From contig CAYOCH010000001.1 of the NCBI GenBank assembly GCA_964402535.1, positions 8,286 through 72,285 of the forward strand: 64,000 nucleotides of DNA, read 5' to 3'. The notes under the pieces are model-generated. The model was not told the DNA's origin. It ran no database searches and saw nothing but the letters and a program-made list of their open reading frames with translations. A program made the position numbers and the translations under genes. This stretch comes from an uncultured Candidatus Saccharibacteria bacterium. GTDB taxonomy: Bacteria; Patescibacteriota; Minisyncoccia; Phycocordibacterales; Phycocordibacteraceae. Position 1 is the stretch's first letter; each line of letters opens with the position of its first letter. Below are positions 739 to 63,942 of the stretch, one piece after another.

Positions 739-762
739 ACCGAAGTTAGGACATCCGATGTC

Positions 763-2337
<1,575 letters not shown>

Positions 2338-13544: not shown

Positions 13545-15587
<2,043 letters not shown>

Positions 15588-15592
15588 ATACG

Positions 15593-16843
15593 TTAGGCGT
15601 AGTAGGAACGGACAAAGTCTGCCCGATATTGTTCAAATCGTCCATCGATGATCGCCTGCCGCGCGCCAGCGACGAGGTCGAGGATGAAGCCGACGTTGTG
15701 CATCGAGGCGATAGCTGCGCCGAGCATCTCGCCCGAGCGCAGGAGGTGCGCGACATAGGCGCGAGAGAACTGCTCGGTGCCTGTTACAGCGAGCTCTGGG
15801 TCGAGCGGGCCGAAGTCTGTCCTATATTTTTCGTTCGTGAGACGGATGACGCCTTGTTTCGTATAGATCGAGCCGTGCCGGCCGAGCCGCGTCGCTGCGA
15901 CGCAGTCGAAGAGGTCCATGCCGTTCGCGATGCCCTCGAGGATATCGCCCGGCTCACCGATCCCGAGGAAGTGCCGCGGCAGCTCCTCGGGCAGTTCCCC
16001 CACGGCTGCCGAGAGCGCGCTCCGCATATCCTCCTTGCTGAAGGAGCCGCCGATGCCGATGCCGTCGAAGCCGAGTGAGGCGATCTCGCGAGCCGACTCG
16101 GCGCGCAGATCTTCGTGACGGCCGCCCTGCACGATGCCGAAGATCGCCTGCTTCTTGCTCGCGTCGATATTCTGCCGGTGCGCCGTAAGCGACCGCGCCG
16201 CCCAGCGATGTGTGCGTTCCATCGCCTCCTTCTGGTATTCATACGGCTCAGTCGGCGACGTGCATTCGTCGAAGGCGAAGAAGATGTCCGCGCCGAGTGC
16301 GTGCTGGATCTCGATCGTGCGCTCTGGCGTGAAGCGATGCAGCGAGCCGTCCAGGTGCGAGGTGAAGGAGACGCCCTCGTCGTCGATCACCGCGAGCTGG
16401 CCGTGCTGGCTCGCGACGCTCTCGTCGAAGTGCGCGAGCCCATGTCGGGACGTCGTACGTCCTACATCAGATGTAGGACGTACGACGTCCTCCACATTCG
16501 AGATCTTCGAGATCTTACGGCCGAAGGCCGCCCCGAGCGAGAAGACCTGAAAGCCGCCCGAGTCAGTGATCGTCGGCCCGCTCCAACCCATGAACGTGCC
16601 GAGCCCGCCAGCCTCTTGGACGATCTTCTCTCCCGGCTGCAGGTAGAGGTGATAGGTGTTCGCGAGGACGACCTCGGCGCCGAGCGCCTCGAGGGTCGAG
16701 GGCAGGATGCCTTTCACGTTCGCCTTCGTTCCCACCGGCGTGAAGGCGGGCGTGCGGATCGCCCCGTGAGGCGTCGTGAGGATGCCAACACGCGCGCGGC
16801 TCTTCAGCTCGCGTGATTCAATTGAGAATGAGATCGCGCTCAT
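15593..16843 (-). CDS. tgt: Queuine tRNA-ribosyltransferase (tRNA-guanine transglycosylase) with about 43-aa insertion
   Basis: TDSGGFQVFSLG, FDECT and Zn-site CxCxxC-like blocks conserved; 416 aa versus about 375 typical; extra segment after FSLG contains a perfect palindrome. Confidence 0.85.
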   Translation of the reverse strand: MSAISFSIESRELKSRARVGILTTPHGAIRTPAFTPVGTKANVKGILPSTLEALGAEVVLANTYHLYLQPGEKIVQEAGGLGTFMGWSGPTITDSGGFQVFSLGAAFGRKISKISNVEDVVRPTSDVGRTTSRHGLAHFDESVASQHGQLAVIDDEGVSFTSHLDGSLHRFTPERTIEIQHALGADIFFAFDECTSPTEPYEYQKEAMERTHRWAARSLTAHRQNIDASKKQAIFGIVQGGRHEDLRAESAREIASLGFDGIGIGGSFSKEDMRSALSAAVGELPEELPRHFLGIGEPGDILEGIANGMDLFDCVAATRLGRHGSIYTKQGVIRLTNEKYRTDFGPLDPELAVTGTEQFSRAYVAHLLRSGEMLGAAIASMHNVGFILDLVAGARQAIIDGRFEQYRADFVRSYYA

Positions 16844-17735: not shown

Positions 17736-20090
17736 TTAGCGGATAAGCCGCGCGAAGTCGTCGAGCTCGGGCGGCTTCGCAAATGCGGAGAAGAAGCTCG
17801 TGATGCCCGTGTTCTTGATCGGCGCACCAGAGATGAGTCGGCCGTCGACGACCCCCCACGCGACTCGATATTTGCCGGAGTCGTCCGCCGCGTAGATCAC
17901 CTCGTTCGGATGCGTCGTGAGATATTTCGTCATCACCTCAAGGCGCGCTTCGGCTGTACCGCCGAACGCGAAGACCTTGGTCCCTGCCGAATCGATATAG
18001 AGATGCGTCTCTTTGACCGGCACGTCAAGACCGTAGTTGTTGCGGACGACATCGGCCGCCTGCTCATAGGAGCCCGAGTGGATCAGGTTGCCTGAGCCGT
18101 CCCTGATCGCGTTGCCAGAGCCGTCATGCACGACCGGCGCCTCTGGTGCGAGAGCAGGCGCCGGGGTCGGCACGTTCGCGGCGTTGACTGCCGCCTCGTG
18201 CGCCTCTTGTGCTGCCGTGAGATCGTTGGTCTCGACTGACGGTGGCGGCTGCGCCTCGATATGCGCATCCTCTGGTACGGGCGCGCTCGGAACCGGCGCT
18301 TCGATATGCGGCGCGCCTGACAGCTTCATCCCCTCTGCTGCGTTCACGATGTCGCCGTGCGCCGCGTCAGAGAAATGCAGCGCGCCGTCTGCACCGATCG
18401 AGAGATGCGCACTCTTGTCGATCACGACGCTCCCGCCCTCGCCGAAGAACTTGTGATCCATCGCGAGCCGATGAATCACGCCGTTGATCTTCTCTGGATG
18501 CGCTTTAGCATCAAATAGCCTCTCAATATCACTGTTTGCTTGCATCCCCGCTGGCGGCTGATCAGGCAGCTGCTTGATCAAGTCCTTCAGCATACCCTCG
18601 TAGCCGTGTGACGAAGCGCCGACTGACACGACCGGCGCTTCTGCGATCGGTGCTGGTGCAGCCACCGCAGGAGCCGCCTCAGCTGCCGGAGCCGCGGTTG
18701 CTGCTGCCTGCGGCACCTCCGGCGGTGCTGGCGGCGGCGTCGCATCGGGCACTGACGATGCGTGTGGTGCTAGCGTTGGCGCTTCGCTTGTCTGTGATGC
18801 CATGGGTGCAGCCGCATGGTGACCCAACTTGTCACCAAGCCATTCGCGGACATGCGCCGCCCAGTCCGACTGGCTCACTTCTCTGATCAACTCGCTCATC
18901 GCAAGCGTCATGCCTGCTGAAAAGAGTATCGCCTTTACCATCGCCTTCTCTTTCGCATGCGTTCCGCCCTTTTCGAGCTCGCTCTTCTCAAACTTCAGAA
19001 ACGCTGTCGAAAGTCCGGCGACGCGCTGCGCTGCGACGCCGGTGAGACATGCAAACGCTGCCGGGAGTGACGCGCCGGAGGCGATACCAGCGCCGACACC
19101 GAGCGTGAGTCCGACTGCGATCTTTGTCTTCCATCCCATCTTGTTGTATTTCTCCCCAAGCCGACGAAATCCGCTTTCGACCTTACCCATCTTGGCAAGA
19201 CCAGCATCGAGTTCTTGTGAGCGCACCGCAAGCATCTCTCCAGGAGTCGCGGGTTCCTTCTCCTGCTTCGTCTCCTTCTCTGCATCTGCCTTCGCCGTCG
19301 CCTCGGCAACAAGCCGCTGCAATTCTTCTTGTGCCTCCTTGCGCGTCATCTCCTCGCTCTTCCGCCAGACTGCCGGCCCTTCCGCATTCGCCTTATCAAT
19401 ATCGAATGTCGGCGTTTGCCCCGCCGACTCCTGTGTTGGCAGAGTTGCTGGTTCCGATTTCGCCGGCGCTTGCCGCGCGTCGAGGCGCGCTTGCCCCTGC
19501 GCTATCGCGCGATTGAGCGCACTGCTCTTCGGGTCGTTGATCGATTCACCTTTTTTGAGAGCCTCAGTATTGTCTGCCGTTCTTTCTGCAACCTGCTGCT
19601 GTGCCTCTTGCTGCAAGCTCGCCTTGAGCGCCTCTACATCCGCGCCCGTTTCCAATCCGGCATCAAGGTCGATATCGACATGCTGTTCTTGTCCTGCCGG
19701 CGATAGCGCATCTATGTTCTGAAGGGTGTCCGAAATGACCTGTTCTCGCTCCTCTGGCGTAAATCTGGTCTGCTCTTTTTCTGCCGCAGCTGCCTCCGCG
19801 TAGACGCGCTCGCGGCGTACTGAGTTCAGATCTTCGACCTGCCTCGTCATCGCGTTTTCAATCCTGTCTTTGCTCTTGGCTGCTTTGGCCTTCGGATACG
19901 CTCGGGCGAGCTTAGCGACACGATCGAACATCTCGTTCGCACCCTTCCATGCCTTGCCCTCGAATTCACCGGGATCCTCGCCCGCAAGCTTCAGGCGCTT
20001 CCCCATCGCTGAATACCCCTTCTTTGCTTCTTCAAAAGAGGCCTTCGGATCGAACGGTTTCGCGCTGTCGTCGGGGGGATATTCAGCCAT
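17736..20090 (-). CDS. Large hypothetical membrane protein (coiled-coil N-terminus, 2 TM, Pro/Ala-rich linker, C-terminal globular domain)
   Basis: 784 aa; 5 nt downstream of the ATPase gene on the same strand (operon). Confidence 0.55.
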   Translation of the reverse strand: MAEYPPDDSAKPFDPKASFEEAKKGYSAMGKRLKLAGEDPGEFEGKAWKGANEMFDRVAKLARAYPKAKAAKSKDRIENAMTRQVEDLNSVRRERVYAEAAAAEKEQTRFTPEEREQVISDTLQNIDALSPAGQEQHVDIDLDAGLETGADVEALKASLQQEAQQQVAERTADNTEALKKGESINDPKSSALNRAIAQGQARLDARQAPAKSEPATLPTQESAGQTPTFDIDKANAEGPAVWRKSEEMTRKEAQEELQRLVAEATAKADAEKETKQEKEPATPGEMLAVRSQELDAGLAKMGKVESGFRRLGEKYNKMGWKTKIAVGLTLGVGAGIASGASLPAAFACLTGVAAQRVAGLSTAFLKFEKSELEKGGTHAKEKAMVKAILFSAGMTLAMSELIREVSQSDWAAHVREWLGDKLGHHAAAPMASQTSEAPTLAPHASSVPDATPPPAPPEVPQAAATAAPAAEAAPAVAAPAPIAEAPVVSVGASSHGYEGMLKDLIKQLPDQPPAGMQANSDIERLFDAKAHPEKINGVIHRLAMDHKFFGEGGSVVIDKSAHLSIGADGALHFSDAAHGDIVNAAEGMKLSGAPHIEAPVPSAPVPEDAHIEAQPPPSVETNDLTAAQEAHEAAVNAANVPTPAPALAPEAPVVHDGSGNAIRDGSGNLIHSGSYEQAADVVRNNYGLDVPVKETHLYIDSAGTKVFAFGGTAEARLEVMTKYLTTHPNEVIYAADDSGKYRVAWGVVDGRLISGAPIKNTGITSFFSAFAKPPELDDFARLIR

Positions 20091-20094
20091 AGCC

Positions 20095-22899
20095 TTATCG
20101 CGAGAGGTAGCGCTCCCGAATCATGTTCTCTACCGTAGCACGGTCGCGGCCGTAGGTGAGGGAGGAGAGCTGGATAAGGTCGTTCACCTGCTCGTGATTC
20201 AGTGCCGGCAGATCGGGCGTGCGCAGGTCGAAGGGCTGCTGCGGTACGCCCTGCGAGAGGATCTTCATGTATGCATTGCGGTTCTCGATATTCACGAAGT
20301 CGAGGGCGACGAAGACGGGCGCGAACTGCTTGGCGAAGAACTCGGCATCCTCCTCCCCGACGCGGAAGACCGCCATGTTCCCCACGTTGCCGAAGACTGC
20401 GTCGCGCGTCTTCTCCTCGATCTGGCTCAAGAATTGGTGCGCGACCGTCAAGGAGAGCTTGTACTTGCGCGCCTCCGAAAGGATGCCCGGGATCGAGTCG
20501 GTCGTCACGTTCTGGAACTCGTCGATATACAGATAGAACGGCGGATACGCCGCGCGCGGATTGTCAGCGCGCGAGAGCGCGGCCATGAAGAGCTTGCCGA
20601 CGATGATGAGGCCGAGGAGGTTCGCGTTCTTCTCGCCCAAGCGCCCCTTCGAGAGGTTGATGAGCAGGATCTTCTTGGTATCCATCACCTCGCGGAATTT
20701 GAAAGAGGACTCCTGCTGCCCCACGATCGGGCGGATGAAGTCGTTCGCCGTGAAGTCGTCGAACTTGTTCGTGATATAGGGCACGATATTCTCCAAGGCC
20801 GCGTCACCGCCGGCCTTCGTCGCGATGTCTGTCCAGAACTGGTTCACGATCGGGTTGAGGCTCTTCGCGAGCTTCATGCGGCGGTACTCGCTGTTCGAGA
20901 GCACGCGCGCTATGTCGAGGATCGTCGAGCCGCTCGAAGGATCCTCCATCACGAGCTGCGTCGCATTACGGAAGTATTGCTCGAACGCGGGACCCATCGA
21001 CTCGGGCACGTCGCCATAGAGCCGCTTGAAGATCATCAGGAGCTCGTTGACGATGAACGTCTTCTGCTCCGGCCGCGAAAGATCGTATTCGAGGAAGTTG
21101 AGCGAGAAGGGGCGCGAGAGATCTGCCGGATCGAAGTAGATCACGTCCTTGTAGCGCTCGGGCGGGATCGCCGCGAGGATGTCGAGGATATCGGTGCCAT
21201 GCGGGTCGATAAAGCAGCAGCCCTCGCCCGCATTGATGTCCTGAATGATCATCGACTTCATCAGCCCGGTTTTGCCCGTGCCCGTCTGGCCGATCACATA
21301 GAGGTGCCGCAGGCGATCCTCGCTCGTGAGATAGATCGGCGTTTCTTGTCCGCGGTAGGAGTTGATGCCGAGAAGCGCGCCTGATTGAGGGAGGTTCATG
21401 GGTGCCGCGGCGTGCGTAAATCGCGCCTGCTTCAGGTGCGGCGAGCTCGCGATACCCGCTGGCGGGAAGTGATAGAGCGTCGTGAGCTCGCGCAGCGATA
21501 AGGGAAGCGCCTCTGCCGCAGGGACGCGGAATGAGAAGTCCTCGAACAACGCTTGCGCGCTTCGGCCTTCGATGCGTTTGAAGTCGAGCCGGTTCCCTTG
21601 CGTGTTACCGAACTGGTTGAATCCGGCCTCGAGCTCGCTCAAGACCTGCCCGGCCTTGCGCTCATCGGCAGAGGACGCGACAAGCCGGATCGTCGCGCCG
21701 ACGATCGGCGTCGCGATCTTCTTCTCGACCTCTTGGATGTAACTCTTGTTCGCTTCGGCTTGGCGCGTCTCGGCCTCCTTCGCCTTCTCGACATCCTTGG
21801 GCTTGCTCGAAAAGAGCCGCTTGCTGAAGTCGCGTGCAAGCTCGCCAAACGCCGTCTCGGGCGTGGTGAAGGCGGCTTGGCGCTTCTCCCCTTTTCGCAG
21901 CGCCTGGAGGATCTTGCTGTAGTGGCGCACGTGCCGATCGCCGCGCGGCTCGATGATGAGCTGTATCGCGGCACCCTCGCCCTTGTGCTCGATCTTGGCG
22001 AACGCGTTCGTGATCGCGTTAATCGGGTCGTAGTCGAACTCCGGGTACTCCTTCAAGGGGAGCGCTGGATTCTCGGCCAAGGTCGCGACCGACGCGAGCG
22101 AGGCACCCTTGGGAGCGAAGATGTTGTAGTCCAAGGGCTGCGGGACCAGGTGTGCGTCCGGGAAGATCGCGAGGAGCTGCTTCTCGAAGAGCGCTGCCTT
22201 GCCGTTCGGCACTGCCGCATAGAACTGGAGCTCGGGCGAGTTCGCCGGCACAGCGAGCTCGAGCGCGAAGTAGGGCGGCTCGTCGCCCTGTGCATCGCCG
22301 ACCGAGAGCAACCCGGCATAGAACTGCTCCATGCCGGAGATGAGCTCCTTCAAGGTCTTCTGTCGCGCGCCCTGCTCTTGCACCTTCGGCGCGGGTAGCG
22401 CGATCTCGTAGAGCGTCATCTTGAGCGCGCGGAATCGGGGCGCCTTCTCGTCGGCCCCGGGCACCACGAGGCCGGCGGCGATGTAGCGCACCAGGTAGCG
22501 GTGGAAGTCGTCTGCGACCTCGGGGTCGCCCATCTTCTCGACGATCGCGAGCGCATTCTTGATCCCATGCTCCTGCATCGCCTGTTGCAGGCTCGCGATC
22601 ACGCGCTCGTCGTCGCCAAGGGCGAGATCAGAGAGGATAGCCTCGGCCTCGCTCTTCTTGGTCTTCTCGCTGATGCGATACTCGCGGGCGAGCACCTTAT
22701 CGGGCGCGTCGGCATGCTCCTTGACCTGCTCCGAGATGATGCGCACGTGCTCGAACGCGCTTGGCGACTTGCCCCTGCCCGCCAGCTCCGCCTCTTTCTT
22801 GGCCACTTGCTCGCGCAGGTAGGCCAATTCCGCTTCAGGCGTGGACAACGTCGGTGCCGATTCCATGTGATATCTAGTATACTGCACGCGAATGCTCAA
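20095..22899 (-). CDS. FtsK/HerA/TraD-VirD4-like P-loop ATPase (type IV secretion/conjugation coupling-protein-like)
   Basis: 934 aa; Walker A VIGQTGTGKTGLMK, Walker B YLYIDEFQNV, downstream TVAHQ motif; N-terminal about 450 aa lacks TM helices. Confidence 0.6.
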   Translation of the reverse strand: MSIRVQYTRYHMESAPTLSTPEAELAYLREQVAKKEAELAGRGKSPSAFEHVRIISEQVKEHADAPDKVLAREYRISEKTKKSEAEAILSDLALGDDERVIASLQQAMQEHGIKNALAIVEKMGDPEVADDFHRYLVRYIAAGLVVPGADEKAPRFRALKMTLYEIALPAPKVQEQGARQKTLKELISGMEQFYAGLLSVGDAQGDEPPYFALELAVPANSPELQFYAAVPNGKAALFEKQLLAIFPDAHLVPQPLDYNIFAPKGASLASVATLAENPALPLKEYPEFDYDPINAITNAFAKIEHKGEGAAIQLIIEPRGDRHVRHYSKILQALRKGEKRQAAFTTPETAFGELARDFSKRLFSSKPKDVEKAKEAETRQAEANKSYIQEVEKKIATPIVGATIRLVASSADERKAGQVLSELEAGFNQFGNTQGNRLDFKRIEGRSAQALFEDFSFRVPAAEALPLSLRELTTLYHFPPAGIASSPHLKQARFTHAAAPMNLPQSGALLGINSYRGQETPIYLTSEDRLRHLYVIGQTGTGKTGLMKSMIIQDINAGEGCCFIDPHGTDILDILAAIPPERYKDVIYFDPADLSRPFSLNFLEYDLSRPEQKTFIVNELLMIFKRLYGDVPESMGPAFEQYFRNATQLVMEDPSSGSTILDIARVLSNSEYRRMKLAKSLNPIVNQFWTDIATKAGGDAALENIVPYITNKFDDFTANDFIRPIVGQQESSFKFREVMDTKKILLINLSKGRLGEKNANLLGLIIVGKLFMAALSRADNPRAAYPPFYLYIDEFQNVTTDSIPGILSEARKYKLSLTVAHQFLSQIEEKTRDAVFGNVGNMAVFRVGEEDAEFFAKQFAPVFVALDFVNIENRNAYMKILSQGVPQQPFDLRTPDLPALNHEQVNDLIQLSSLTYGRDRATVENMIRERYLSR

Positions 22900-34630: not shown

Positions 34631-35641
34631 TTATGCGTGACCAGACGCTGTCACCACCTGCTCGAGCTCGGCGGCGGAATTGGCGGCCATGAGCTTGGCG
34701 CGGAGGTCGGCGGCGCCGTCAAAGCCGGTGACGAATGCCTTGATGTGCTTCTTGAGTATCGAAAAGTTCTTCGGCGGCGCGAGCTTCTCAAATCCGTGCG
34801 CGAGTTCGACGAGCGCCATCAGCTTCTCTTGCAGTCCATGTTCGGGTTTCGTAAATCCATCATGCATGATGGATTTACGAAACCCATCATTGCCGCGCTC
34901 CGCAAATACCCACGGATTGCCAAACATGCCGCGGCCGATCATGACGCCGTCACAACCGGTCTCTGCGGCGAGCCGCTCCCCTTCTGCGATGCTCTGCACA
35001 TCGCCATTCCCTATGAGGAGCACATCGGGCGCGATCCGGTCGCGGAGCTCTTTAGCCTTCTTCATCCGCTCCCAATCGGCGGGGACGAGCGAGAGCTCCT
35101 TGCGCGTGCGCAGGTGGAGCGTGAGCGCCGCCGGTCGTGCCGAGAGGATCGGCGTGAGCCACTCTAGAAGCGTCTCTTTGTTATAGCCGATGCGCGTCTT
35201 CACCGAGACCGGCAGCCCTGCAGACTTCGCCGCCTCGATGAGTTCGACCGCTAAGGTCGGCGACTTGATGAGCGCTGCGCCGGCACCCTGCTTCTCGATG
35301 CTCCTATCCGGGCAGCCCATGTTGAGGTCGACGCCGTCGAAGCCAAGCTCGGCCACGACCTTGGCGCCATACGCGATCATCTCGGGTTTCGCCGAGAAGA
35401 TCTGTGCGACGATCGGATGCTCAGCGCTCGTGAACCGCAGATCGCGCATAAGCGGATTCTCTGCGTCCGGCATCTTAGCGATCTCGCGGGTGTGAAGGAG
35501 CCCGTCGGCCGAGACGAACTCGGTCCACGTGACGTCCGGCTTGCCATGCTTCGCAACGAGCGCGCGGAAGGCAGCGTCGGTGACATCCGCCATCGGCGCC
35601 ATCGCGAAGAACGGTCGCGAGAGCTTATTCCAGAATGACAT
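34631..35641 (-). CDS. dus: tRNA-dihydrouridine synthase
   Basis: TIM-barrel Dus motifs (APMADVTD, NMGCP, VKTRIG, conserved catalytic Cys); 336 aa. Confidence 0.85.
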   Translation of the reverse strand: MSFWNKLSRPFFAMAPMADVTDAAFRALVAKHGKPDVTWTEFVSADGLLHTREIAKMPDAENPLMRDLRFTSAEHPIVAQIFSAKPEMIAYGAKVVAELGFDGVDLNMGCPDRSIEKQGAGAALIKSPTLAVELIEAAKSAGLPVSVKTRIGYNKETLLEWLTPILSARPAALTLHLRTRKELSLVPADWERMKKAKELRDRIAPDVLLIGNGDVQSIAEGERLAAETGCDGVMIGRGMFGNPWVFAERGNDGFRKSIMHDGFTKPEHGLQEKLMALVELAHGFEKLAPPKNFSILKKHIKAFVTGFDGAADLRAKLMAANSAAELEQVVTASGHA

Positions 35642-35667: not shown

Positions 35668-36534
35668 TTACCGCTTTGTGCCGTCCGACTTTCGCTTCAC
35701 GTAGACTTTACCGTCGAAGCGCAGGTCGACGTAGACGAGCGAGCCGTCGCCAAGGTTCATGCTGCCCTTGCCCGAGGTGAGCGCGGTAAACGCCGCTTGC
35801 TCGTGACCGAGCACATAGGTCACGCGGGTACCACTCGCGAGATAGTCGTCGATCTCGTCGCCGCGGAGCGCGACCCTGGTCACCTCCGTGCCGAAGGTCG
35901 CGAGCTGCCGCGCGAAGTCGAACGTGCTCGGCAGCTCGTCTGCGCGCGCGATAGTCGCTCGGAGAGGTTCAAGCACATCGCCAATCAGGGGCGCGTAGAC
36001 CGCGAACGGGTTGATCGTCTCGGTCGTCGTCGCAGCAGGTGCGAAGACGAATCCGTTCGCGTCAAAAACATAGCAGTTCTCGACTCCCGATGGCTTGGAG
36101 CTTGCCCCGTTGGAAATCAGATTTTCAACGGGGCACCAGCGTGCGACCGCGACGCGGTCGTTCACCTTGATCGAGAGGCCCGTGAGCCCGTTGTGGAATA
36201 TCGAAATGGAGGCGATCTCCGGATGCGCCGCCATGATGTTCGCGCGGATCTGCCCGTCCGGATAGAAGAACATCGAGTCGCGCGGCACGAGCCCCAGATA
36301 GCTGCCCTGCATCGCCGAGGTCGCAACGTCTGAGAGCGACTGGTCAGCGCCGTAGATCGTGACCTCGCTGATGCGCACGGCGCTCTGGTTCAAGCCGTAG
36401 AGCAGCCCCGCGAGCGCGAGGATTGCGAGAACGACAAACGTGATCAAGACGCGGCGTCGGCGCTGTCGGCGGCGTTCTGCAAGCCGCGCGCTACCGTGCG
36501 GTACCGAGGACAGTCTTGCCGACATACGGCACAA
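35668..36534 (-). CDS. FtsQ/DivIB-like POTRA-domain protein
   Basis: Arg-rich cytoplasmic N-terminus, single TM, then VRISEVTIYGADQSLSDVATSA POTRA-like segment. Confidence 0.45.
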   Translation of the reverse strand: MCRMSARLSSVPHGSARLAERRRQRRRRVLITFVVLAILALAGLLYGLNQSAVRISEVTIYGADQSLSDVATSAMQGSYLGLVPRDSMFFYPDGQIRANIMAAHPEIASISIFHNGLTGLSIKVNDRVAVARWCPVENLISNGASSKPSGVENCYVFDANGFVFAPAATTTETINPFAVYAPLIGDVLEPLRATIARADELPSTFDFARQLATFGTEVTRVALRGDEIDDYLASGTRVTYVLGHEQAAFTALTSGKGSMNLGDGSLVYVDLRFDGKVYVKRKSDGTKR

Positions 36535-39452: not shown

Positions 39453-41864
39453 GTGCGCGTTATGAGTGAGGGGGTGAGCTCCAAACTACTCATCGTCGAA
39501 TCACCGACCAAGGCGCGCACGATCGGTCACTACCTGGGCAAGGACTACACGGTCCTCGCTTCAGTCGGCCACGTGCGCGATTTGCCCAAGACGAACAAGG
39601 ACGCCGTCGACATCGAGGGCGGCTTCGTGCCGCGCTACGTGATCCCCGCCGAGAAGCGTGAGGTGATCGAGAAGATCGAGCGCGCCGCCAAGAAGGCCGA
39701 CGAGATCTATCTCGCGACCGACCCCGACCGCGAGGGCGAGGCGATCGCGTGGCATATCAAGGAGGTCGCCGGACTGAAGCAGCCTAAGCGCGTCGCCTTT
39801 CACGAGATCACGAAGGAGGCGATCGAGGAGGCGCTCAAGGAGCCGCGCGCGATCGACGAGCACCTGCGCCAGGCGCAGGAAGCCCGCCGCGTGCTCGACC
39901 GCATCGTGGGCTACGACCTCTCCGGCCTCATCTGGAAGAAGGTGCGCTACGGCCTCTCTGCCGGACGCGTGCAGTCACCTGCGCTCCGGATCCTCGCGGA
40001 GCGCGAACGCGAGATCACTTCGTTCATCCCGGTCACGTACTTCGTGCTCTCTGCGCTCTTCACCTCGAAGAAGGGTGAGATCGCCACGACCTGCACCGAG
40101 CAGCCCGCGACGCGCGAGGAGGCCGAGCGGATCGTGCGCGAGGGCAAGAGCGCGTCGTGGCAGGTCGCCGACGTGAGCGAGAAGGCCGAGGAGCGCAACC
40201 CGCGTCCACCCTTCACCACCTCGACGCTGCAGCAGGCAGCCTCGACGCGGCTCGGCTTCGCACCTTCGCGCACGATGCGCGCCGCGCAGAAGCTCTACGA
40301 GGCGGGTCACATCACCTACATGCGTACCGACTCGGTGAACCTCGCGAAGGAGGCGGTCGCCAAGCTCGCCGGCGTCGTCGAGAAACAATTCGGCAAGGAG
40401 TACCTGCAGGTGCGCGCCTACAAGACGACGAGCAAGAACGCCCAGGAGGCGCACGAGGCGATCCGCCCCACCGACCCTTCAAACACGCACGCAGGCGCGA
40501 CGCCTGACGAGACGCATCTCTATGAGCTTATCCGCACGCGCACGCTCGCCTCGCAGATGGCGGCCGCCAAAGTGATGCGCACGTCGATTTCAATACAAGC
40601 AGATAAAATGATTCCGCTCTTCGTCGCGAACGGCTCGCGGGTCATCTTCCCGGGCTGGCTCGCGCTTGACGTGAAGGCGCGCGGCGAGGACGTCGAGCTG
40701 CCGCACGTCGCGAAGGGCGATGCCGTGTCGCTCCTCTCGCTTACCAGTGAAGAGAAGCAGACCGAGCCGCCGAACCGCTACACCGAGGCCGGCCTCATCA
40801 AGGAGCTCGAGAAGCGCGGCATCGGCCGCCCCTCGACCTACGCCTCGATCATGAAGACGATCCAGGATCGCGGCTATGTAGAGAAACTCGGCAGGGCGCT
40901 TAAGCCGACCGCGACCGGCATGGTCGTCTCCGGCTGGCTCGAGGAGCACTTCCCCGAGTATGTGAGCGACACGTTCACCGCCGAGATGGAGGATGAGCTC
41001 GACGAGATCGCCCGCGGAGAGCGCGGCTACACCGAGACGCTCTCGGCCTTTTATGGACCGTTCGAAAAGGCGGTGCACGCCAAGGACAAGCTGCCCAAAG
41101 CGACCTCGCTCGGCAACGTAGACGCCAAGTTCCCCTGCCCGATCTGCGGCGGCCCGATGGAGTTGAAGCTCGGCCGCGGCGGCGTCTTCATGTCCTGCAA
41201 GCGCTACCCGGACTGCGTCGGCGCCCGCACCGAGGACGGCGCTGAGCTCAAAGGTGACGAGCCGATCGGCAGCCACCCCGAGACCGGCGCACCTATATAT
41301 GTGAGGAGCGGCCGCTACGGGCCGTATGTCGAGATGCCCGAGCCCGAACCAAGGTCAGACCTTAAGAATTCGGATCCAAGGTCTGACCTTAGTTCGGGTA
41401 CGAAGAAACGCGGTAAAGGGCGACCGAAGGTCGCTGCCAAGCGCGCGAGCATCCCTGCCGGCACTAAGCCCGAGGACGTGACGCTCGCCGACGCCGTGCG
41501 CTACCTCTCGCTCCCGCGCGAGCTCGGGACGCATCCCTCGACCGGCAAGCCGGTCATCGCCTCCACCGGCCGATTCGGCCCCTACGTCGGGAGCAACGGC
41601 GAGTTCCGCTCACTGAAGAAGCAGGACCCCTACACCGTGACGCTCGACGAGGCGCTCGCGCTCCTTGCGCAGCCCAAGCGGCCGCCCAAGGGCGTCGAGA
41701 TCGTGCGCGAGATCGGCGCGCACCCAAAGTCTGGAAAGCAGCTCGTCCTCTACAAGTCGAAGCAAGGTCTCTTCCTCAAGAAGGGCTTGCGCCGCATCTA
41801 CCTGCCTTCGAATACGAGCGCCGACGCGCTCACGCCCGCAGAAGCGGCCACGTATCTCGCATAA
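39453..41864 (+). CDS. topA: DNA topoisomerase I
   Basis: TOPRIM (LLIVESPTKARTI), catalytic Tyr region, C-terminal Zn-ribbon (CPICGGPMELK...CKRYPDC) and basic tail. Confidence 0.95.
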   Translation: MRVMSEGVSSKLLIVESPTKARTIGHYLGKDYTVLASVGHVRDLPKTNKDAVDIEGGFVPRYVIPAEKREVIEKIERAAKKADEIYLATDPDREGEAIAWHIKEVAGLKQPKRVAFHEITKEAIEEALKEPRAIDEHLRQAQEARRVLDRIVGYDLSGLIWKKVRYGLSAGRVQSPALRILAEREREITSFIPVTYFVLSALFTSKKGEIATTCTEQPATREEAERIVREGKSASWQVADVSEKAEERNPRPPFTTSTLQQAASTRLGFAPSRTMRAAQKLYEAGHITYMRTDSVNLAKEAVAKLAGVVEKQFGKEYLQVRAYKTTSKNAQEAHEAIRPTDPSNTHAGATPDETHLYELIRTRTLASQMAAAKVMRTSISIQADKMIPLFVANGSRVIFPGWLALDVKARGEDVELPHVAKGDAVSLLSLTSEEKQTEPPNRYTEAGLIKELEKRGIGRPSTYASIMKTIQDRGYVEKLGRALKPTATGMVVSGWLEEHFPEYVSDTFTAEMEDELDEIARGERGYTETLSAFYGPFEKAVHAKDKLPKATSLGNVDAKFPCPICGGPMELKLGRGGVFMSCKRYPDCVGARTEDGAELKGDEPIGSHPETGAPIYVRSGRYGPYVEMPEPEPRSDLKNSDPRSDLSSGTKKRGKGRPKVAAKRASIPAGTKPEDVTLADAVRYLSLPRELGTHPSTGKPVIASTGRFGPYVGSNGEFRSLKKQDPYTVTLDEALALLAQPKRPPKGVEIVREIGAHPKSGKQLVLYKSKQGLFLKKGLRRIYLPSNTSADALTPAEAATYLA

Positions 41865-45288: not shown

Positions 45289-46182
45289 ATGACAATACAA
45301 TTACTCGCCATCGCCGGCCCGACCGCCTCGGGCAAATCCTCTCGCGCCGTCGAAGAGGCGCTCACGCGCAACGGCGAGATCATCTCGGTCGACTCGCGTC
45401 AGGTCTACCGCGGGCTCGACATCGGCACCGAGAAGGTTACGGCATCTGAGATGCGCGGTGTGCCGCACCACCTGCTGGATATACGCGAGCCGGAGGAGAC
45501 ATATTCCGCTGGCGAGTTCGTCGCGGATGCGACAACGGCCATTAACGATATCGTCGCTCGCGGCAAGCTGCCGATCCTTGTGGGCGGCTCGCACTTCTAC
45601 TTCGACGCGCTCCTTCAGGGGCTGCCCGACAGCGCCGACCCTGACCCGACGCTCCGCGCAGAGCTCGAGCGGCTCTCTGACGAGGAACTCTGTGCTCGCG
45701 TGCGCGCTGCCGATCCGCGTCGCGCTGCCGAGCTCGACCCCAAGAACCGCCGCCGCTTGATCCGTGCACTCGAGATCATCACCGCCCGCGGCTCCGTCCC
45801 GGAGCGGCGTTCGTTATCTTGTACGACCGTTGAAGATAACGAACACCGGCGACCATTTCAAGCCGAGTGGATCGAGATAAATCCGGATCGGGATGAGCTG
45901 CGGGCGCGGATCGACGCTCGGCTCAAGAGCGCGTTCGAGCGCGGCCTGATCGATGAGGTGCGGCGGGTCCGCGAACGTGTGGGCGACGCGCGGATCAACG
46001 AGCTCGGGCTCGAGTATCGCGTCGTGGGAGAGTTCTTGCGCGACGAGCGCAGTGAGGCATCACTCCTCCCTGCTCTCTCCGCCAAGCTCTGGCAATATGC
46101 CCGCCGGCAGAAGGCCTGGCTGCGCAAGCTCCGCGACGAGAACGTTATTGCGGGAGCGCCGTCGCACCCGGACAGAAGCTGA
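45289..46182 (+). CDS. miaA: tRNA dimethylallyltransferase
   Basis: P-loop IAGPTASGKS, DSRQVYRGLDIGT, and typical MiaA remainder. Confidence 0.85.
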   Translation: MTIQLLAIAGPTASGKSSRAVEEALTRNGEIISVDSRQVYRGLDIGTEKVTASEMRGVPHHLLDIREPEETYSAGEFVADATTAINDIVARGKLPILVGGSHFYFDALLQGLPDSADPDPTLRAELERLSDEELCARVRAADPRRAAELDPKNRRRLIRALEIITARGSVPERRSLSCTTVEDNEHRRPFQAEWIEINPDRDELRARIDARLKSAFERGLIDEVRRVRERVGDARINELGLEYRVVGEFLRDERSEASLLPALSAKLWQYARRQKAWLRKLRDENVIAGAPSHPDRS

Positions 46183-56028: not shown

Positions 56029-56670
56029 ATGGGAAGACATGCAAACCACTTCGACCTGTCATGGACTCACGATCTCGCGTATGTTGTGGGACTCTTAACA
56101 AGCGACGGCAATCTGTCTCCCGATGGTAGACACATTAATCTTACCTCTCGCGACAAGGAACTTGTTGAATATGCTCGCACGATTCTGGGTCTTACAAACA
56201 AGATCGGCAAGAAGGGTCGAGGGGGTTCGTTAACCAAAGACTATTATGTGCTGCAGTTCGGCAGCATACAATTCTATTCCTTTTTGCTTAAGATTGGGCT
56301 GACACCTGCGAAGTCAAAGACGCTAGGGCCGCTTGCGATCCCTCAACATTATTTCTGCGATTTCGTTCGCGGCTGCATCGACGGAGATGGAAACATCAGT
56401 GAGGCCTTGCACCCTGAGAGTTCGCTTATCCAGCTCCGTTTGCGCATTTCATCGGCAAGCCCCGCGTTCTTACGATGGTTGTTGACTCAACTGCGGCGGC
56501 AGTGCGAGGTGCCTGGGGGCTGGATCTATTTAGACAAGAAGAAATCTGTGAGTATGTTATGTTTTGGCAAGAGAGATTCAATCGATATATTACGAAGGGC
56601 GTACGAATATAAATCAGCGTATTTTCTGAGACGAAAATATGCGATTGCTAGGAAATATCTGGGCGAGTAG
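56029..56670 (+). CDS. LAGLIDADG family homing endonuclease (two-motif, single-chain type), free-standing
   Basis: Motif 1 YVVGLLTSDGNL and motif 2 FVRGCIDGDGNI about 100 aa apart; about 47% GC versus about 65% genome. Confidence 0.7.
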   Translation: MGRHANHFDLSWTHDLAYVVGLLTSDGNLSPDGRHINLTSRDKELVEYARTILGLTNKIGKKGRGGSLTKDYYVLQFGSIQFYSFLLKIGLTPAKSKTLGPLAIPQHYFCDFVRGCIDGDGNISEALHPESSLIQLRLRISSASPAFLRWLLTQLRRQCEVPGGWIYLDKKKSVSMLCFGKRDSIDILRRAYEYKSAYFLRRKYAIARKYLGE

Positions 56671-59651: not shown

Positions 59652-60218
59652 CTAAATGCCAGAACCGGTGCTCACGGAACACTGCGCAACGTCAGACACG
59701 ACGCTACCGTCAGGACAATACACATTGTTTGTGACAGGTGCACTCGCACTGGTTTGAGATGCCCCAGTAGGCAACGTCGCACTGGTTTGTGTAGGTGGCG
59801 GAGGCGGGATCGAGGCGCCAGAACCGGTCTGCGACGCGGATTTGCCGATCGTCGGGAAGTCCGGCGCGTTGCCGCCAGGCCGCAGACCGAGCGTGGACAT
59901 GAAGAGGTTCACGAGCCCCCAGAGTGAGAGGATGACCACGAAGCCGATCACGCCCCAGAGCGTGAACTGACGTCCTGTCGAGCGGCTCGTTTCGTCATCT
60001 GCTCCCTTGATGAAGTAATTGTAGACACCCCAGATAAAGACGATGAAGGCGATCGCCATCACTACTGGCACCAAGACGAAGTTGATGAAGTAGATGATCT
60101 GGTCGGTGTAGGGCTTCTTGATCGCGTCGATGTTGATGCCTTGCTGCGCTGCTGCGGCAAACGGCAGAGCGAACGCTGCTGCAAGCGATGAGAGGCGGAG
60201 GAGTCTTTTCATGGTCAA
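59652..60218 (-). CDS. Two-TM pilin-like small protein, paralog 3 (Pro/Thr/Ser-rich C-terminal tail)
   Basis: 188 aa; KGADDETSRSTGRQFTLWGVIGFVVILSLWGLVNLF; tail IPPPPPTQTSATLPTGASQTSAS. Confidence 0.65.
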   Translation of the reverse strand: MTMKRLLRLSSLAAAFALPFAAAAQQGINIDAIKKPYTDQIIYFINFVLVPVVMAIAFIVFIWGVYNYFIKGADDETSRSTGRQFTLWGVIGFVVILSLWGLVNLFMSTLGLRPGGNAPDFPTIGKSASQTGSGASIPPPPPTQTSATLPTGASQTSASAPVTNNVYCPDGSVVSDVAQCSVSTGSGI

Positions 60219-62777: not shown

Positions 62778-63362
62778 TTAGGGTGCTGTGAAGATAATAC
62801 CGTAGTGATGCGGCCCGGCGCGGAACGACTTCTGCTTGTGGAAGCCGCCATTGATGAAAAAGGCCTCGGCGTCGCGCTCGGTCACCACCTTCTCAGGCGT
62901 GGGGCCCATGCCGCCGTAGCTCCCTGCCCAATCAACCACCATGAGCTTGCCGCCCTGCTTCAAGACGCGCTTGATCTCGTTCAAGAGCCCGTAGCGGTTC
63001 TCGACTTGGAAGAAGGTGTTCGCGAGCAGCACCGCGTCGAGCGAGGCGTCGCGCAGGTGCGAGCCGCCCGGCTTCTCGATGTCGCCCCAGATCGCGTCGA
63101 TCGTGTTCACGTGGTGCGCGTGGGTGTTGTGCTTCAAGTGCTTCAAGACGTCCTCTTGAATATCGACCGCATAGACACGCCCGTCACGCCCGACCACCGC
63201 TGCTGCTGCGCGAGAATAATGACCCGAGCCGGCGCCGAAGTCGCCGACCCGCATCCCCTCGCGCAGCCCGATCTGGAGCACGTTCTCGTGCGGAGAACTG
63301 AAATGCGCGCTCATGTCATAAAAATACCACGTGTCATCCGCTACCGAACGCGCAATCAACAC
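62778..63362 (-). CDS. Class I SAM-dependent methyltransferase
   Basis: Motif I VGDFGAGSGHYS, motif II DAVLLANTF; true start may be MSAHFSS at about 63314. Confidence 0.7.
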   Translation of the reverse strand: MLIARSVADDTWYFYDMSAHFSSPHENVLQIGLREGMRVGDFGAGSGHYSRAAAAVVGRDGRVYAVDIQEDVLKHLKHNTHAHHVNTIDAIWGDIEKPGGSHLRDASLDAVLLANTFFQVENRYGLLNEIKRVLKQGGKLMVVDWAGSYGGMGPTPEKVVTERDAEAFFINGGFHKQKSFRAGPHHYGIIFTAP

Positions 63363-63426
63363 TCGTTATCCGTATCTTCTCGATAGTCGACAATCCACTA
63401 ATTATAACGGCCGTTAGAATTAGTGG

Positions 63427-63942
63427 TTAATCCTCGATCGGTAGACCGAAATGCTGACGGAGCGGTTTGTCGTATTCAATCTTCTCAACGATCGCATACA
63501 ACACATCCTTCCCGACCCGCAGCTCAGATTTCAACAACGTAACGAACTCCTCGCAATCATACGGGAATGCCCACACGCTGGCCTGTAACTTTACGAATCC
63601 AACGTCACGCATTAGGTCGCGCAGACGAAATCGGACGGACTTGCGTCTCTCGGGGATATCAAAAATGACGAGCCGCCATCTCTTGTCCCATTTCCGCTTC
63701 TTTATCAATTGCGCTTTCTCCTTCTCGAACAGGAGCGCCGTGCGACCCTTGTCCGTGATGCGCAGAAACGTCTTGCCGTCTTCCTTAACCCATTCCGCTA
63801 ACCCTTTATAAACAAGCTTGCCTGCAGCAGTCTTCGCGTAATAGCGGAAACGGTTCAGGTCCTTCGGCTTCCCGAGCAGTTGAATCGCATTTCCAGCAAG
63901 CGCTCCGACCGTCACGATCGTGGCGAGGCCGAGCGTTATCAA
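63427..63942 (-). CDS. Hypothetical protein with Cas2-like/PaaX-like C-terminal segment
   Basis: 171 aa; WRLVIFDIPERRKSVRFRLRDLMRDVGFVKLQASVWAFPYD resembles the Cas2 core; about 50% GC; no CRISPR array nearby. Confidence 0.35.
   Translation of the reverse strand: MITLGLATIVTVGALAGNAIQLLGKPKDLNRFRYYAKTAAGKLVYKGLAEWVKEDGKTFLRITDKGRTALLFEKEKAQLIKKRKWDKRWRLVIFDIPERRKSVRFRLRDLMRDVGFVKLQASVWAFPYDCEEFVTLLKSELRVGKDVLYAIVEKIEYDKPLRQHFGLPIED

What the first reader, a model, noticed from the sequence alone, without database searches (positions are those of the whole stretch)
41340..41400. Near-perfect 21-bp inverted repeat flanking an AflII-EcoRI-BamHI hexamer cluster, in frame in the topA C-terminal tail
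CCCGAACCAAGGTCAGACCTT at 41343-41363 and AAGGTCTGACCTTAGTTCGGG at 41378-41398 are inverted repeats with one mismatch. They are separated by AAGAATTCGGATCC, so CTTAAG, GAATTC and GGATCC overlap or abut. The element encodes EPEPRSDLKNSDPRSDLSSG (PRSDL repeated) in the linker after the Zn-ribbon region. This makes a third in-frame palindromic element in a housekeeping gene. The polylinker-like site cluster is improbable by chance: a specific 12-mer is expected about 0.004 times per 64 kb.
Basis: seen in the sequence. Interest (0 to 1): 0.6.

Follow-up and report, generated by a model that had tools for sequence, protein, structure and literature searches.

The report
Palindromic repeat inside CPR topoisomerase gene
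The "polylinker-like" palindrome in topA is a natural member of a short, two-fold-symmetric DNA repeat family that is spread through ultra-small Patescibacteria genomes, often sits in frame inside housekeeping genes, and is apparently undescribed.

Summary
The arms 41343-41363 and 41378-41398 pair with one mismatch. The spacer AAGAATTCGGATCC is in frame in topA and encodes PEPRSDLKNSDPRSDLSSG.

It is not vector or adapter, and it is not a contig join. An identical TopA is on record in NCBI. Independently assembled TopA orthologues carry the same element at the same linker site. Among those alleles there are compensatory arm changes and an exactly inverted spacer.

The core is AAGGTC-N-GACCTT, a 10-14 nt spacer, then AAGGTC-N'-GACCTT. 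Of these, 90 are labelled Patescibacteria.

About half of the copies lie inside long ORFs of unrelated genes: LigA at four sites, UvrA, LeuRS, LepA, RecN, a P-type ATPase and TopA. Each is a 10-13 residue insertion that homologues lack.

A covariance model built only from other genomes' copies scores the window element at 49 bits (E 5e-13). CTTAAG, GAATTC and GGGGAT-type strings are features of the family consensus.

Best reading: a REPIN/RPE-like selfish palindromic repeat, tolerated because it is translated into a disordered linker. The mobilising enzyme is unknown. I found no published description.

The parts
39462..41864 (+). topA (type IA DNA topoisomerase I) coding sequence that hosts the element
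   Evidence: Pfam Toprim, Topoisom_bac, Zn_ribbon_Top1 and Toprim_C_rpt. A 100% identical 800-aa protein, P0001, is on record in NCBI.
41337..41414 (+). Hypervariable linker (residues 626-651) between GPYVEM and KGRPK, predicted disordered
   Evidence: An alignment of 120 orthologues shows 0-45 unalignable residues here. AlphaFold2 gives pLDDT below 50 and no secondary structure for residues 629-656, in a model of modest overall quality.
41343..41363 (.). Left arm of the 21-nt inverted repeat: a locus-specific outer part CCCGAACC plus unit 1
   Evidence: The outer arm occurs only in TopA genes in the metagenome scan.
41351..41363 (.). Family core unit 1, AAGGTC-A-GACCTT (encodes RSDL)
41364..41377 (.). 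Asymmetric spacer AAGAATTCGGATCC, which forms the hairpin loop. It matches the 38-class family spacer read on the other strand (TTGGGGATnnATTCTTAAGG).
   Evidence: The spacer is inverted between TopA alleles: L002 GAGGATTCGGATCT versus L131 AAATCCGAATCCTC, whose reverse complement matches at 13 of 14 positions.
41378..41390 (.). Family core unit 2, AAGGTC-T-GACCTT. Its centre base is complementary to that of unit 1.
   Evidence: Centre bases are complementary in 90 of 103 pairs from loci labelled Patescibacteria.
41378..41398 (.). Right arm of the inverted repeat: unit 2 plus the outer part AGTTCGGG
   Evidence: Covariation with the left arm across 7 TopA alleles.
41350..41391 (.). Extent matched by the family covariance model R1, which was built from copies in other genes and genomes
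   Evidence: 49.2 bits, E 5.5e-13. The next best hit in the window scores 12 bits.

Best explanation
The element is one copy of a dyad-symmetric short dispersed DNA repeat of Patescibacteria (the candidate phyla radiation, CPR). It consists of two inverted copies of a 13-nt palindromic unit, AAGGTC-N-GACCTT, separated by an asymmetric spacer of about 10-14 nt.

Shown:
- The family is real.
- In the species-representative genome scan it is found mainly in genomes labelled Patescibacteria.
- It is multi-copy in some genomes.
- It occurs both between genes and inside many unrelated genes, as 10-13 residue insertions that homologues lack.
- In topA it sits in a hypervariable, predicted-disordered linker.
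- TopA alleles in related lineages carry it at the same site.
- The arms stay complementary through compensatory substitutions.
- The spacer exists in both orientations between identical arms.

Inferred:
- The repeat spreads as non-autonomous selfish DNA, mobilised in trans by an unidentified enzyme that recognises the palindromic unit or the hairpin formed by single-stranded DNA.
- Copies survive in these gene-dense genomes where they are harmless. The core has no stop codon in five of six frames (none when N is C or G), so in-frame copies in surface loops and linkers are simply translated. Here that adds 19 hydrophilic residues.
- After insertion, hairpin-templated correction (quasipalindrome template switching) or recombination between the arms keeps the arms matched, can extend them into flanking sequence (the locus-specific CCCGAAC/GTTCGGG), and flips the spacer.
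- The restriction-site cluster is a by-product of the family consensus.
For: Family and taxonomic range:
- 90 of the 120 loci are labelled Patescibacteria, from many classes and with GC 27-66%.
- One Lloydbacteria MAG has copies on 9 contigs, and H43-bin105_1 on 7.
- Centre bases are complementary in 90 of 103 CPR-labelled pairs, against 25% expected by chance.
- Centre-to-centre spacing peaks at 24 and 27 bp.

Membership:
- Model R1 was built without the window or any TopA-linker allele. It scores 41350-41391 at 49.2 bits, E 5.5e-13.

Insertion and mobility:
- 55 of 104 copies lie in ORFs of at least 200 aa.
- Hosts include a P-type ATPase, LigA, UvrA, TopA at another site, LepA, LeuRS and RecN/SMC.
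- Three LigA genes carry four elements at four different sites. Each is absent from the other LigAs.

Translation:
- Codon-phase use is strongly biased: RSDL frame 60, G-x-T frame 40, V-x-P frame 10 of 110 units.
- No copy was seen splitting a gene.

The TopA copy:
- It has the same site and the same outer arms in win, L001, L002 and L131, with diverged versions in L125, L129 and L130.
- 5 of 21 arm pairs show double (compensatory) changes and 93% of cells are paired. 0 of 500 shuffles reached the covariation score.
- The spacer is inverted between identical arms in L002 versus L131.
- Element-bearing alleles are scattered on the TopA tree. Other hairpin-forming elements occupy the same linker in other alleles.
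- The linker is predicted disordered.

Not an artefact:
- An identical protein is on record in NCBI, and orthologues with the element come from independent assemblies.
Against: - No mobilising gene was identified. No transposase appeared among the 23 window ORFs scanned with Pfam, and the rest of the genome was not available.
- No target-site duplication or exact insertion boundary could be defined for this family. Every filled-versus-empty comparison is between diverged genes.
- Copy number here is low: one copy in 64 kb. That is unlike classical REP/REPIN populations.
- Conservation of one 13-nt core across a whole superphylum is unusual for selfish repeats. It could instead point to a conserved host protein and a cellular role.
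- Some intergenic copies in Lloydbacteria are flanked by A-runs and T-runs like bidirectional terminators.
- The TopA copies may all descend from a single old insertion, so this particular copy shows persistence, not recent mobility.
- The family census is conditioned on the search pattern and capped at 120 rows.
Confidence: 0.6

Rival explanations
1. A host-function site. The AAGGTC-N-GACCTT doublet would be the binding site of a conserved Patescibacteria protein, or a structural signal such as a bidirectional terminator, a nucleoid or topoisomerase/gyrase site, or a DNA-uptake signal. On this view it is maintained by selection for that function, and the intragenic copies are functional or by-products.
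For: - The same 13-nt core is kept across very divergent classes with GC 27-66%.
- Dyad symmetry is maintained by compensatory change.
- Some intergenic copies in Lloydbacteria have the form AAAAATACA...TGTATTTTT, like bidirectional intrinsic terminators.
- Hosts include many DNA-maintenance genes: LigA, UvrA, TopA and RecN.
Against: - Density is far too low for an uptake signal: one copy in 64 kb.
- Insertion sites differ between homologous genes.
- The TopA copy has no T-run and lies mid-gene, where termination would be harmful.
- Arm complementarity can be kept up by hairpin-templated correction without any selection.
- No binding protein is known.
Confidence: 0.2
2. A cis-acting RNA hairpin in the topA mRNA, selected for regulation of topA itself (for example a translational pause or a stability element).
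For: - The RNA hairpin is very stable: -37.8 kcal/mol, z -7.7.
- Covariation supports pairing of the arms.
Against: - Most TopA orthologues lack it or carry unrelated sequence at the same site.
- The same element occurs in many unrelated genes and between genes, in both orientations.
- The spacer orientation flips between alleles.
- There is no Rfam match.
- Perfect Watson-Crick dyad symmetry is what a DNA-level process produces.
Confidence: 0.07
3. A protein-level feature. The repeated PRSDL peptide would be a selected short linear motif or linker module of TopA.
For: - The RSDL frame is the most used frame among intragenic copies.
- The peptide recurs in about 12 of 120 TopA orthologues.
Against: - The same DNA is read in all three frames in other genes, giving RSDL, QGxTL and KVxP.
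- It also lies between genes.
- Spacer inversion changes the peptide from EDSDL to KSESS while the DNA arms are kept.
- Most orthologues have no such peptide.
- The region is predicted disordered.
Confidence: 0.05
4. An artefact: cloning-vector or adapter sequence, or a chimeric assembly join.
For: Three common cloning sites (AflII, EcoRI, BamHI) overlap or abut within 17 bp.
Against: - The ORF is continuous.
- An identical protein is on record in NCBI.
- Homologous elements lie at the same TopA site in independent JGI and ENA assemblies, with differing hexamers.
- The family is present in dozens of unrelated assemblies.
- The family model matches at E 5.5e-13.
Confidence: 0.01

Closest known systems
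REPINs (REP doublets forming hairpins), mobilised by RAYT transposases
   Same: Both have two short palindromic units in inverted orientation, separated by a short spacer, that together form one long hairpin. Both are non-coding, non-autonomous, multi-copy in some genomes and long-lived within lineages. (REPIN definition from the abstract of PMC3337134, listed; anatomy here.)
   Different: - The units are 13 nt, against 20-40 nt for REPs.
- No GTAG or CGTC terminal tag is visible.
- About half of the copies are inside ORFs rather than extragenic.
- Copy number in this window is low.
- No RAYT was identified.
- One core is shared across a whole superphylum, whereas REP sequences are usually genus-specific (own knowledge).
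Rickettsia palindromic elements (RPEs)
   Same: Both are palindromic repeats inserted in frame into unrelated housekeeping genes and translated as extra peptide segments compatible with protein function. (RPE description from PMC10969869; here.)
   Different: - RPEs are about 100-150 bp, against about 37-56 bp here.
- RPEs are confined to Rickettsia.
- No sequence relationship was tested.
- The two-unit dyad architecture, the complementary centre bases and the spacer flip-flop shown here are not, to my knowledge, RPE features.
MITEs such as Correia elements, and terminator-like repeats such as SPRITE
   Same: All are short, non-autonomous elements bounded by inverted repeats that can land in or near genes. 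Some act as terminators (PMC10969869). Some intergenic copies here look terminator-like.
   Different: - No target-site duplication and no parent insertion sequence could be shown.
- The element is smaller than typical MITEs.
- The whole element is a palindrome, rather than unique DNA between terminal repeats.
Neisseria DUS and Pasteurellaceae USS uptake sequences (own knowledge)
   Same: Both are short conserved motifs that occur as inverted pairs and inside coding regions in preferred reading frames, with a reported bias towards genome-maintenance genes.
   Different: Uptake sequences occur at about one per kb. Here there is one doublet in 64 kb. No link to competence was tested.
Double-hairpin elements and GC clusters of fungal mitochondrial genomes (own knowledge)
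   Same: Both are small mobile hairpin-forming elements that can sit in frame inside genes.
   Different: They occur in organelle genomes, have unrelated sequences, and were not tested here.

Membership tests
Patescibacteria AAGGTC-N-GACCTT doublet repeat (family defined here) | Two AAGGTC-N-GACCTT units with a 10-14 nt spacer and complementary centre bases | tested here: met
   41351-41363 and 41378-41390, with centre bases A and T. Covariance model R1, built from 50 copies in other genes and genomes, gives 49.2 bits and E 5.5e-13.
Patescibacteria AAGGTC-N-GACCTT doublet repeat (family defined here) | Host is a Patescibacteria genome | tested here: met
   The named TopA relatives among the top hits are labelled Kaiserbacteria, Paceibacterota, Parcubacteria or Patescibacteria.
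REP / REPIN | Inverted doublet of palindromic units forming one long hairpin | tested here: met
REP / REPIN | Conserved GTAG or CGTC tetranucleotide at the unit end (feature taken from the title and abstract of PMC3733652) | tested here: not met
   The family consensus and flanks show no such tag.
REP / REPIN | Extragenic location | tested here: not met
   55 of 104 copies lie inside ORFs of at least 200 aa. This copy is inside topA.
REP / REPIN | A cognate RAYT (Y1 HUH transposase) gene in the genome | not testable with these tools
   Only 64 kb of the genome is available. None was seen among the 23 ORFs scanned.
REP / REPIN | High copy number (tens to hundreds per genome) | tested here: inconclusive
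   There is one copy in this 64-kb window. Copies lie on 9 contigs of one Lloydbacteria MAG. Whole-genome counts are not available.
Rickettsia palindromic elements | In-frame insertion into unrelated protein-coding genes, read through as peptide | tested here: met
   Translation is inferred from open frames and frame bias, not observed.
Rickettsia palindromic elements | Size of about 100-150 bp and membership of one of the RPE sequence families of Rickettsia | tested here: not met
   The element is 42-56 bp and is not in Rickettsia. No sequence comparison with RPEs was run.
MITE | Target-site duplication flanking terminal inverted repeats | tested here: inconclusive
   No direct repeat is evident in the aligned flanks of the copies. 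No empty site close enough was available to define the boundaries.
DNA uptake sequence | Genome-wide density of about one per kb | tested here: not met
   There is one doublet and no further unit in 64 kb.
Rfam structured RNA family | Match to a curated covariance model at its gathering score | tested here: not met
   Only tRNAs pass in the window. At the element there are only sub-threshold miRNA-hairpin noise hits.
Cloning vector / synthetic polylinker | Sequence absent from natural relatives and flanked by vector DNA | tested here: not met
   The element is present in orthologous TopA genes from independent assemblies, inside a continuous ORF.

The most novel reading that the evidence does not exclude
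The AAGGTC-N-GACCTT doublet, together with sister families such as GGA-NN-T-NNN-A-NN-TCC seen in Dus and Tgt of this window, may represent an undescribed, superphylum-wide system. In it, tiny dyad-symmetric DNA elements are recognised by a conserved Patescibacteria-specific enzyme. They colonise loops and linkers of essential proteins, stay perfect through hairpin-templated correction, and flip their spacers in place. That would make them a continuing source of length and sequence variation in the proteomes of these minimal-genome bacteria.
Probability: 0.4. Interest if true: 0.75.

Novelty: new variant of a known kind. Interest (0 to 1): 0.62.

Why it matters
Patescibacteria have some of the smallest and most gene-dense bacterial genomes, and selfish repeats are not expected to persist there.

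A repeat family shared across the superphylum that lives largely inside essential genes would be a second, independent and much broader case of the "selfish DNA in protein-coding genes" phenomenon known from Rickettsia.

It would also:
- explain part of the puzzling lineage-specific insertions and hypervariable linkers in CPR proteins;
- supply a marker for strain typing and for recognising CPR contigs;
- point to an unknown DNA-processing enzyme that recognises a 13-nt palindrome;
- offer a natural system for studying how palindromes are kept perfect and inverted in cells, through the compensatory arm changes and spacer flip-flop.

In practical terms, annotators and contamination screens should not flag these restriction-site-rich palindromes as vector.

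Tried and rejected
- Exact look-up of the window TopA in the contig index failed twice, although the protein is in the protein collection. The source record and organism name could not be obtained.
- Rfam, in both gathering and permissive modes, gave nothing relevant.
- The viral contig scan gave a single hit, so there is no sign of phage carriage.
- A search of the fetched loci for Tgt-type doublets found none.
- The metagenome scan for the extended 20-mer arm returned 13 hits, mostly chance single units in non-CPR contigs. Only TopA carries the outer arm, so the idea that the full 56-bp element is itself a mobile subfamily was rejected.
- Seven literature searches found no description of such repeats in CPR or Patescibacteria.
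- Pfam scans of 20 further window ORFs found no transposase. The remaining ORFs were not scanned.
- The AlphaFold2 model of TopA was of modest quality (mean pLDDT 60). It was used only for the local disorder statement.
- A G:U-wobble asymmetry in the 38-class spacer looked like evidence for a strand-specific RNA fold, but the 35-class does not show it, so the idea was dropped.
- A tandem-duplication origin for the Dus palindrome was considered from flank similarities and left unresolved.
- Spirochaetaceae and Pseudomonadota hits are 24-25 bp tandem arrays of same-orientation units. They were set aside as unrelated.
Full report
**Observation.** The sequence is as described. CCCGAACCAAGGTCAGACCTT at 41343-41363 and AAGGTCTGACCTTAGTTCGGG at 41378-41398 are inverted repeats with one mismatch. 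They are separated by AAGAATTCGGATCC. CTTAAG lies at 41361-41366, GAATTC at 41366-41371 and GGATCC at 41372-41377. No related 21-mer with up to 3 mismatches occurs elsewhere in the window, and none occurred in 100 shuffles. As a single strand it folds into a 21-bp stem: DNA -22 kcal/mol, RNA -37.8 kcal/mol, z about -8. The element is in frame in a type IA topoisomerase gene (39462-41864, +; Pfam Toprim, Topoisom_bac, Zn_ribbon_Top1 and Toprim_C_rpt) and encodes residues 628-646. The two units are 27 bp apart centre to centre, so both are read as RSDL.

**Not an artefact.** A 100% identical 800-aa TopA is on record from NCBI, on a 137-kb contig. The named proteins among the closest TopA relatives (79-84% identity) are labelled Kaiserbacteria, Paceibacterota, Parcubacteria or Patescibacteria, so the window is from a Patescibacteria (CPR) genome. 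In an alignment of 120 orthologues the element falls in a hypervariable linker between the conserved GPYVEM and KGRPK motifs. That linker ranges from almost nothing to about 45 residues. About 12 orthologues carry related xRSDLxxSxxRSDLxSG peptides. I fetched the DNA of six of these from independent JGI and ENA assemblies. All have the element at the same place. L002 has perfect 21-nt arms. L001 has only the EcoRI site and L002 has none of the three hexamers, so the site cluster is incidental. The three hexamers occur at ordinary frequency elsewhere in the window.

**How the TopA copy evolves.** Across seven alleles, 93% of arm positions pair. Five of 21 pairs show changes on both sides, and no shuffle out of 500 reached the observed covariation score. 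The changes include:
- the centre bases of the two units (A/T in the window, C/G in most other alleles);
- GGTTCGACC/GGTCGAACC in L129, where the local 13-nt palindromes are broken but arm-to-arm pairing is kept;
- GGTTCAACC/GGTTGAACC in L130;
- outer-arm changes CCAGAAA/TTTCTGG in L129.

The spacer exists in both orientations between identical arms. L002 has GAGGATTCGGATCT. L131 has AAATCCGAATCCTC, whose reverse complement matches L002 at 13 of 14 positions. This is flip-flop inversion of the loop of an inverted repeat, or re-insertion at the same site. It changes the encoded peptide from EDSDL to KSESS. The constraint is therefore on the DNA dyad, not on the peptide.

On a neighbour-joining tree of TopA without the linker, element-bearing alleles are scattered. 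The closest element-free allele, P0010, has no palindrome at this site. Other alleles carry unrelated hairpin-forming sequences in the same linker, such as the PTSEVGAPTESVG and EASAEG...HSAKA families. A metagenome scan for the extended arm found it only in TopA, so the outer CCCGAAC/GTTCGGG part is locus-specific. An AlphaFold2 model with a 36-sequence alignment is of modest quality overall (mean pLDDT 60), but it gives pLDDT below 50 and no secondary structure for residues 629-656. This is consistent with a disordered linker.

**A widespread family.** I scanned one genome per prokaryotic species for AGGTCNGACCT-N12-20-AGGTCNGACCT. Ninety of the 120 loci are labelled Patescibacteria, from many classes: Kaiser-, Zambryski-, Lloyd-, Nomura-, Nealson-, Adler-, Yanofsky-, Taylor-, Woese- and Beckwith-bacteria, "Saccharibacteria", Paceibacterota and Minisyncoccia. 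Their GC content ranges from 27 to 66%. One Omnitrophota MAG also carries dyad-type copies on five contigs. Hits in Spirochaetaceae and Pseudomonadota are 24-25 bp tandem arrays of same-orientation units and are a different thing.

In CPR-labelled loci the two centre bases are complementary in 90 of 103 pairs. Most units occur as pairs, and the singles are often decayed pairs. Spacing peaks at 24 and 27 bp. The two main consensus forms are:
- AAGGTC-N-GACCTT GGGAATTCAAA AAGGTC-N'-GACCTT
- ...CCTTGGGGATnnATTCTTAAGG...

CTTAAG, GAATTC and a GGGGAT-type string are therefore family features. Read on the opposite strand, the window element fits the second form. One Lloydbacteria MAG has copies on nine contigs, with a genome-specific extension (AAAATACA...TGTATTTT). 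Another MAG has copies on seven contigs. A covariance model built from 50 copies, none from the window or any TopA-linker allele, scores 41350-41391 at 49.2 bits (E 5.5e-13). The next best hit in the window scores 12 bits. The window element is a member, and it is the only one in 64 kb.

**Coding context and mobility.** Of 104 dyad copies, 55 lie inside ORFs of at least 200 aa. The rest lie in shorter ORFs or are intergenic, and none was seen splitting a gene. Ten host ORFs were scanned with Pfam. They include a P-type ATPase, NAD-dependent DNA ligase (three genomes), UvrA, TopA (at a different site, inside the catalytic region), LepA, LeuRS and RecN/SMC. Aligning the three LigA proteins shows four elements at four different positions. 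Each is a 10-13 residue insertion that the other LigAs lack. That insertion polymorphism is the evidence that the family inserts into new sites.

The core has no stop codon in five of six frames, and none at all when N is C or G. Intragenic units use the three codon phases very unevenly: RSDL 60, G-x-T 40, V-x-P 10 of 110. This is what selection on a translated insert would produce. Flanks beyond the core are self-complementary in only about a quarter to a third of copies.

**Context in the window.** The window has 17 inverted repeats with arms of at least 12 nt, against about 4 in codon shuffles. Several are terminator-like. Others are in-frame palindromes of a second architecture, GGA-NN-T-NNN-A-NN-TCC doublets.
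- Dus, 34844-34885: an exact 14-codon insertion relative to L001 and L002. L129 has a co-varying homologue at the same site.
- Tgt, 16448-16490: lies between the two Pfam TGT stretches.
- The 3' end of atpA, 749-788.

Variable loops of the FtsQ-like and MiaA proteins also hold palindromes, both here and in orthologues. The TopA element is thus one instance of a general habit of these genomes.

**Explanation.** The best-supported reading is a non-autonomous, selfish palindromic repeat of the REPIN/RPE kind. It inserted into the TopA linker before these lineages diverged. It is tolerated because it is translated into a disordered hydrophilic segment. DNA-level processes acting on inverted repeats then keep it symmetric.

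Shown:
- family membership;
- the CPR-centred distribution;
- insertion polymorphism in other genes;
- frame bias;
- compensatory change;
- spacer inversion.

Inferred:
- mobilisation in trans by an enzyme that recognises the unit or the single-strand hairpin;
- arm maintenance and extension by quasipalindrome template switching (a mechanism known from E. coli; own knowledge);
- neutrality of the insert for TopA function.

The main rival is that the doublet is a site for a conserved host protein or a terminator-like signal. The superphylum-wide conservation of the core, and the terminator-like intergenic copies in Lloydbacteria, keep this alive. The RNA-regulator, peptide-motif and artefact readings are disfavoured for the reasons given under the rival explanations.

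**Comparison with known systems.**
- REPINs: the architecture matches (two inverted palindromic units plus a spacer forming a long hairpin; PMC3337134). It fails the GTAG/CGTC tag and the extragenic location. The RAYT association could not be tested.
- Rickettsia palindromic elements: the lifestyle matches (in-frame insertion in unrelated housekeeping genes; PMC10969869). The size and the taxon do not.
- MITE: no target-site duplication could be shown.
- Uptake signal: the density is far too low.

Seven literature searches found no description of such repeats in CPR. The library is incomplete, so prior description cannot be excluded. I rate it a new variant of a known kind.

**Limits.**
- The census is conditioned on the search pattern and capped at 120 rows.
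- Whole-genome copy numbers and the source genome were unavailable.
- No mobilising gene, exact insertion boundary or target motif was found.
- Translation is inferred, not observed.

Noticed in passing
window 34844-34885 (Dus gene, - strand ORF 34631-35641): A perfect 42-bp palindrome, GGGTTTCGTAAATCCATCATG/CATGATGGATTTACGAAACCC, encodes GFRKSIMHDGFTKP. It is an exact 14-codon insertion relative to the Dus orthologues in L001 and L002. L129 has a co-varying homologue at the same site (GGACTTCGTAAGTCC...GGACTTACGAAGTCC). It belongs to a second doublet architecture, GGA-NN-T-NNN-A-NN-TCC.
   Followed up: yes
window 16448-16490 (Tgt gene, - strand ORF 15593-16843): A perfect 43-bp palindrome, GGACGTCGTACGTCCTACATC-A-GATGTAGGACGTACGACGTCC, encodes DVVRPTSDVGRTTS. 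It has the same GGA-NN-T-CGT-A-NN-TCC doublet architecture as the Dus element. It lies between the two Pfam TGT stretches. Orthologues were not aligned.
   Followed up: partly
window 749-788 (overlaps the 3' end and stop codon of atpA, ORF 763-2337 -): A doublet, GGACATCCGATGTCC-TAGCGCATTT-GGACATCGGATGTCC, with complementary centre bases. The same GGACATCCGATGTCC unit occurs singly at the Dus insertion site of L131.
   Followed up: partly
window 36103-36135 (FtsQ-like ORF 35668-36534 -) and 45805-45848 (MiaA ORF, +): Two further near-perfect palindromes with 16-nt arms sit in variable loops of these proteins. The L001 orthologues carry different palindrome-type peptides at or near the same loops (KSDFKSESPKSDF in the FtsQ-like protein; GHPSLLGCPTP in MiaA).
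   Followed up: partly
TopA linker of orthologues (L127 3001-5415, L128 842-3271; proteins P0025, P0027, P0048, P0076, P0080, P0088; P0028, P0062, P0072, P0110; P0047, P0055, P0064, P0094): At least three other recurrent hairpin-forming elements occupy the same TopA linker in other lineages: PTSEVGAPTESVG (two tandem CCGAC...GTCGG hairpins), EASAEG...PHSAKAxRGAAK, and PTSEGEEVPRPAGRGS. This suggests the linker is a recurrent landing site or safe haven.
   Followed up: partly
window 63381-63440: An AT-rich imperfect palindrome (16-nt core arms CCACTAATTATAACGG/CCGTTAGAATTAGTGG) lies in the short gap between a methyltransferase ORF (62778-63362 -) and a PaaX_M/Cas2-like-domain ORF (63427-63942 -).
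   Followed up: no
window 56029-56670 (+), in a low-GC stretch (56-58 kb, GC 0.52) next to tRNA genes: A free-standing ORF has a LAGLIDADG_3 homing-endonuclease domain. The ORFs downstream of it have no Pfam match.
   Followed up: no
window 20095-22899 (-) and 59652-60218 (-): There is a 934-aa protein with a TraG-D_C (type IV coupling protein) domain and a T4SS_pilin-domain protein. The large neighbouring ORF 17736-20090 has no Pfam match. This could be a type IV secretion or conjugation-like apparatus.
   Followed up: no
window 12713-13513 (-), GC about 0.50: A low-GC 266-aa ORF without a Pfam match is wedged between uvrA (9679-12366) and uvrB (13545-15587).
   Followed up: no
L010, L011, L031, L049, L087, L106 (Spirochaetaceae MAG JAITAM01) and L042, L051, L085 (Pseudomonadota MAG JAZKCA01): These loci hold long tandem arrays with a 23-25 bp period. 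Each repeat contains the same 11-mer, AGGTC(A/T)GACCT, mostly in direct orientation. They are unrelated in architecture to the CPR doublets. Their nature is unknown.
   Followed up: no
L120 3125-4090 (Lloydbacteria MHLS01000057): Six single units of the form GTAC(R)AGGTCCGACCT(Y)GTAC lie within 1 kb, some about 63 nt apart. This may be a repeat-rich gene or a local array of singlets.
   Followed up: no
L018, L023, L033, L050, L074 (MAG labelled Omnitrophota, JACRLT01): Dyad-type copies of a CGAGGTC-S-GACCTCG subfamily lie on five contigs of a genome not labelled Patescibacteria. Either the family extends to Omnitrophota or the bin is mislabelled.
   Followed up: no
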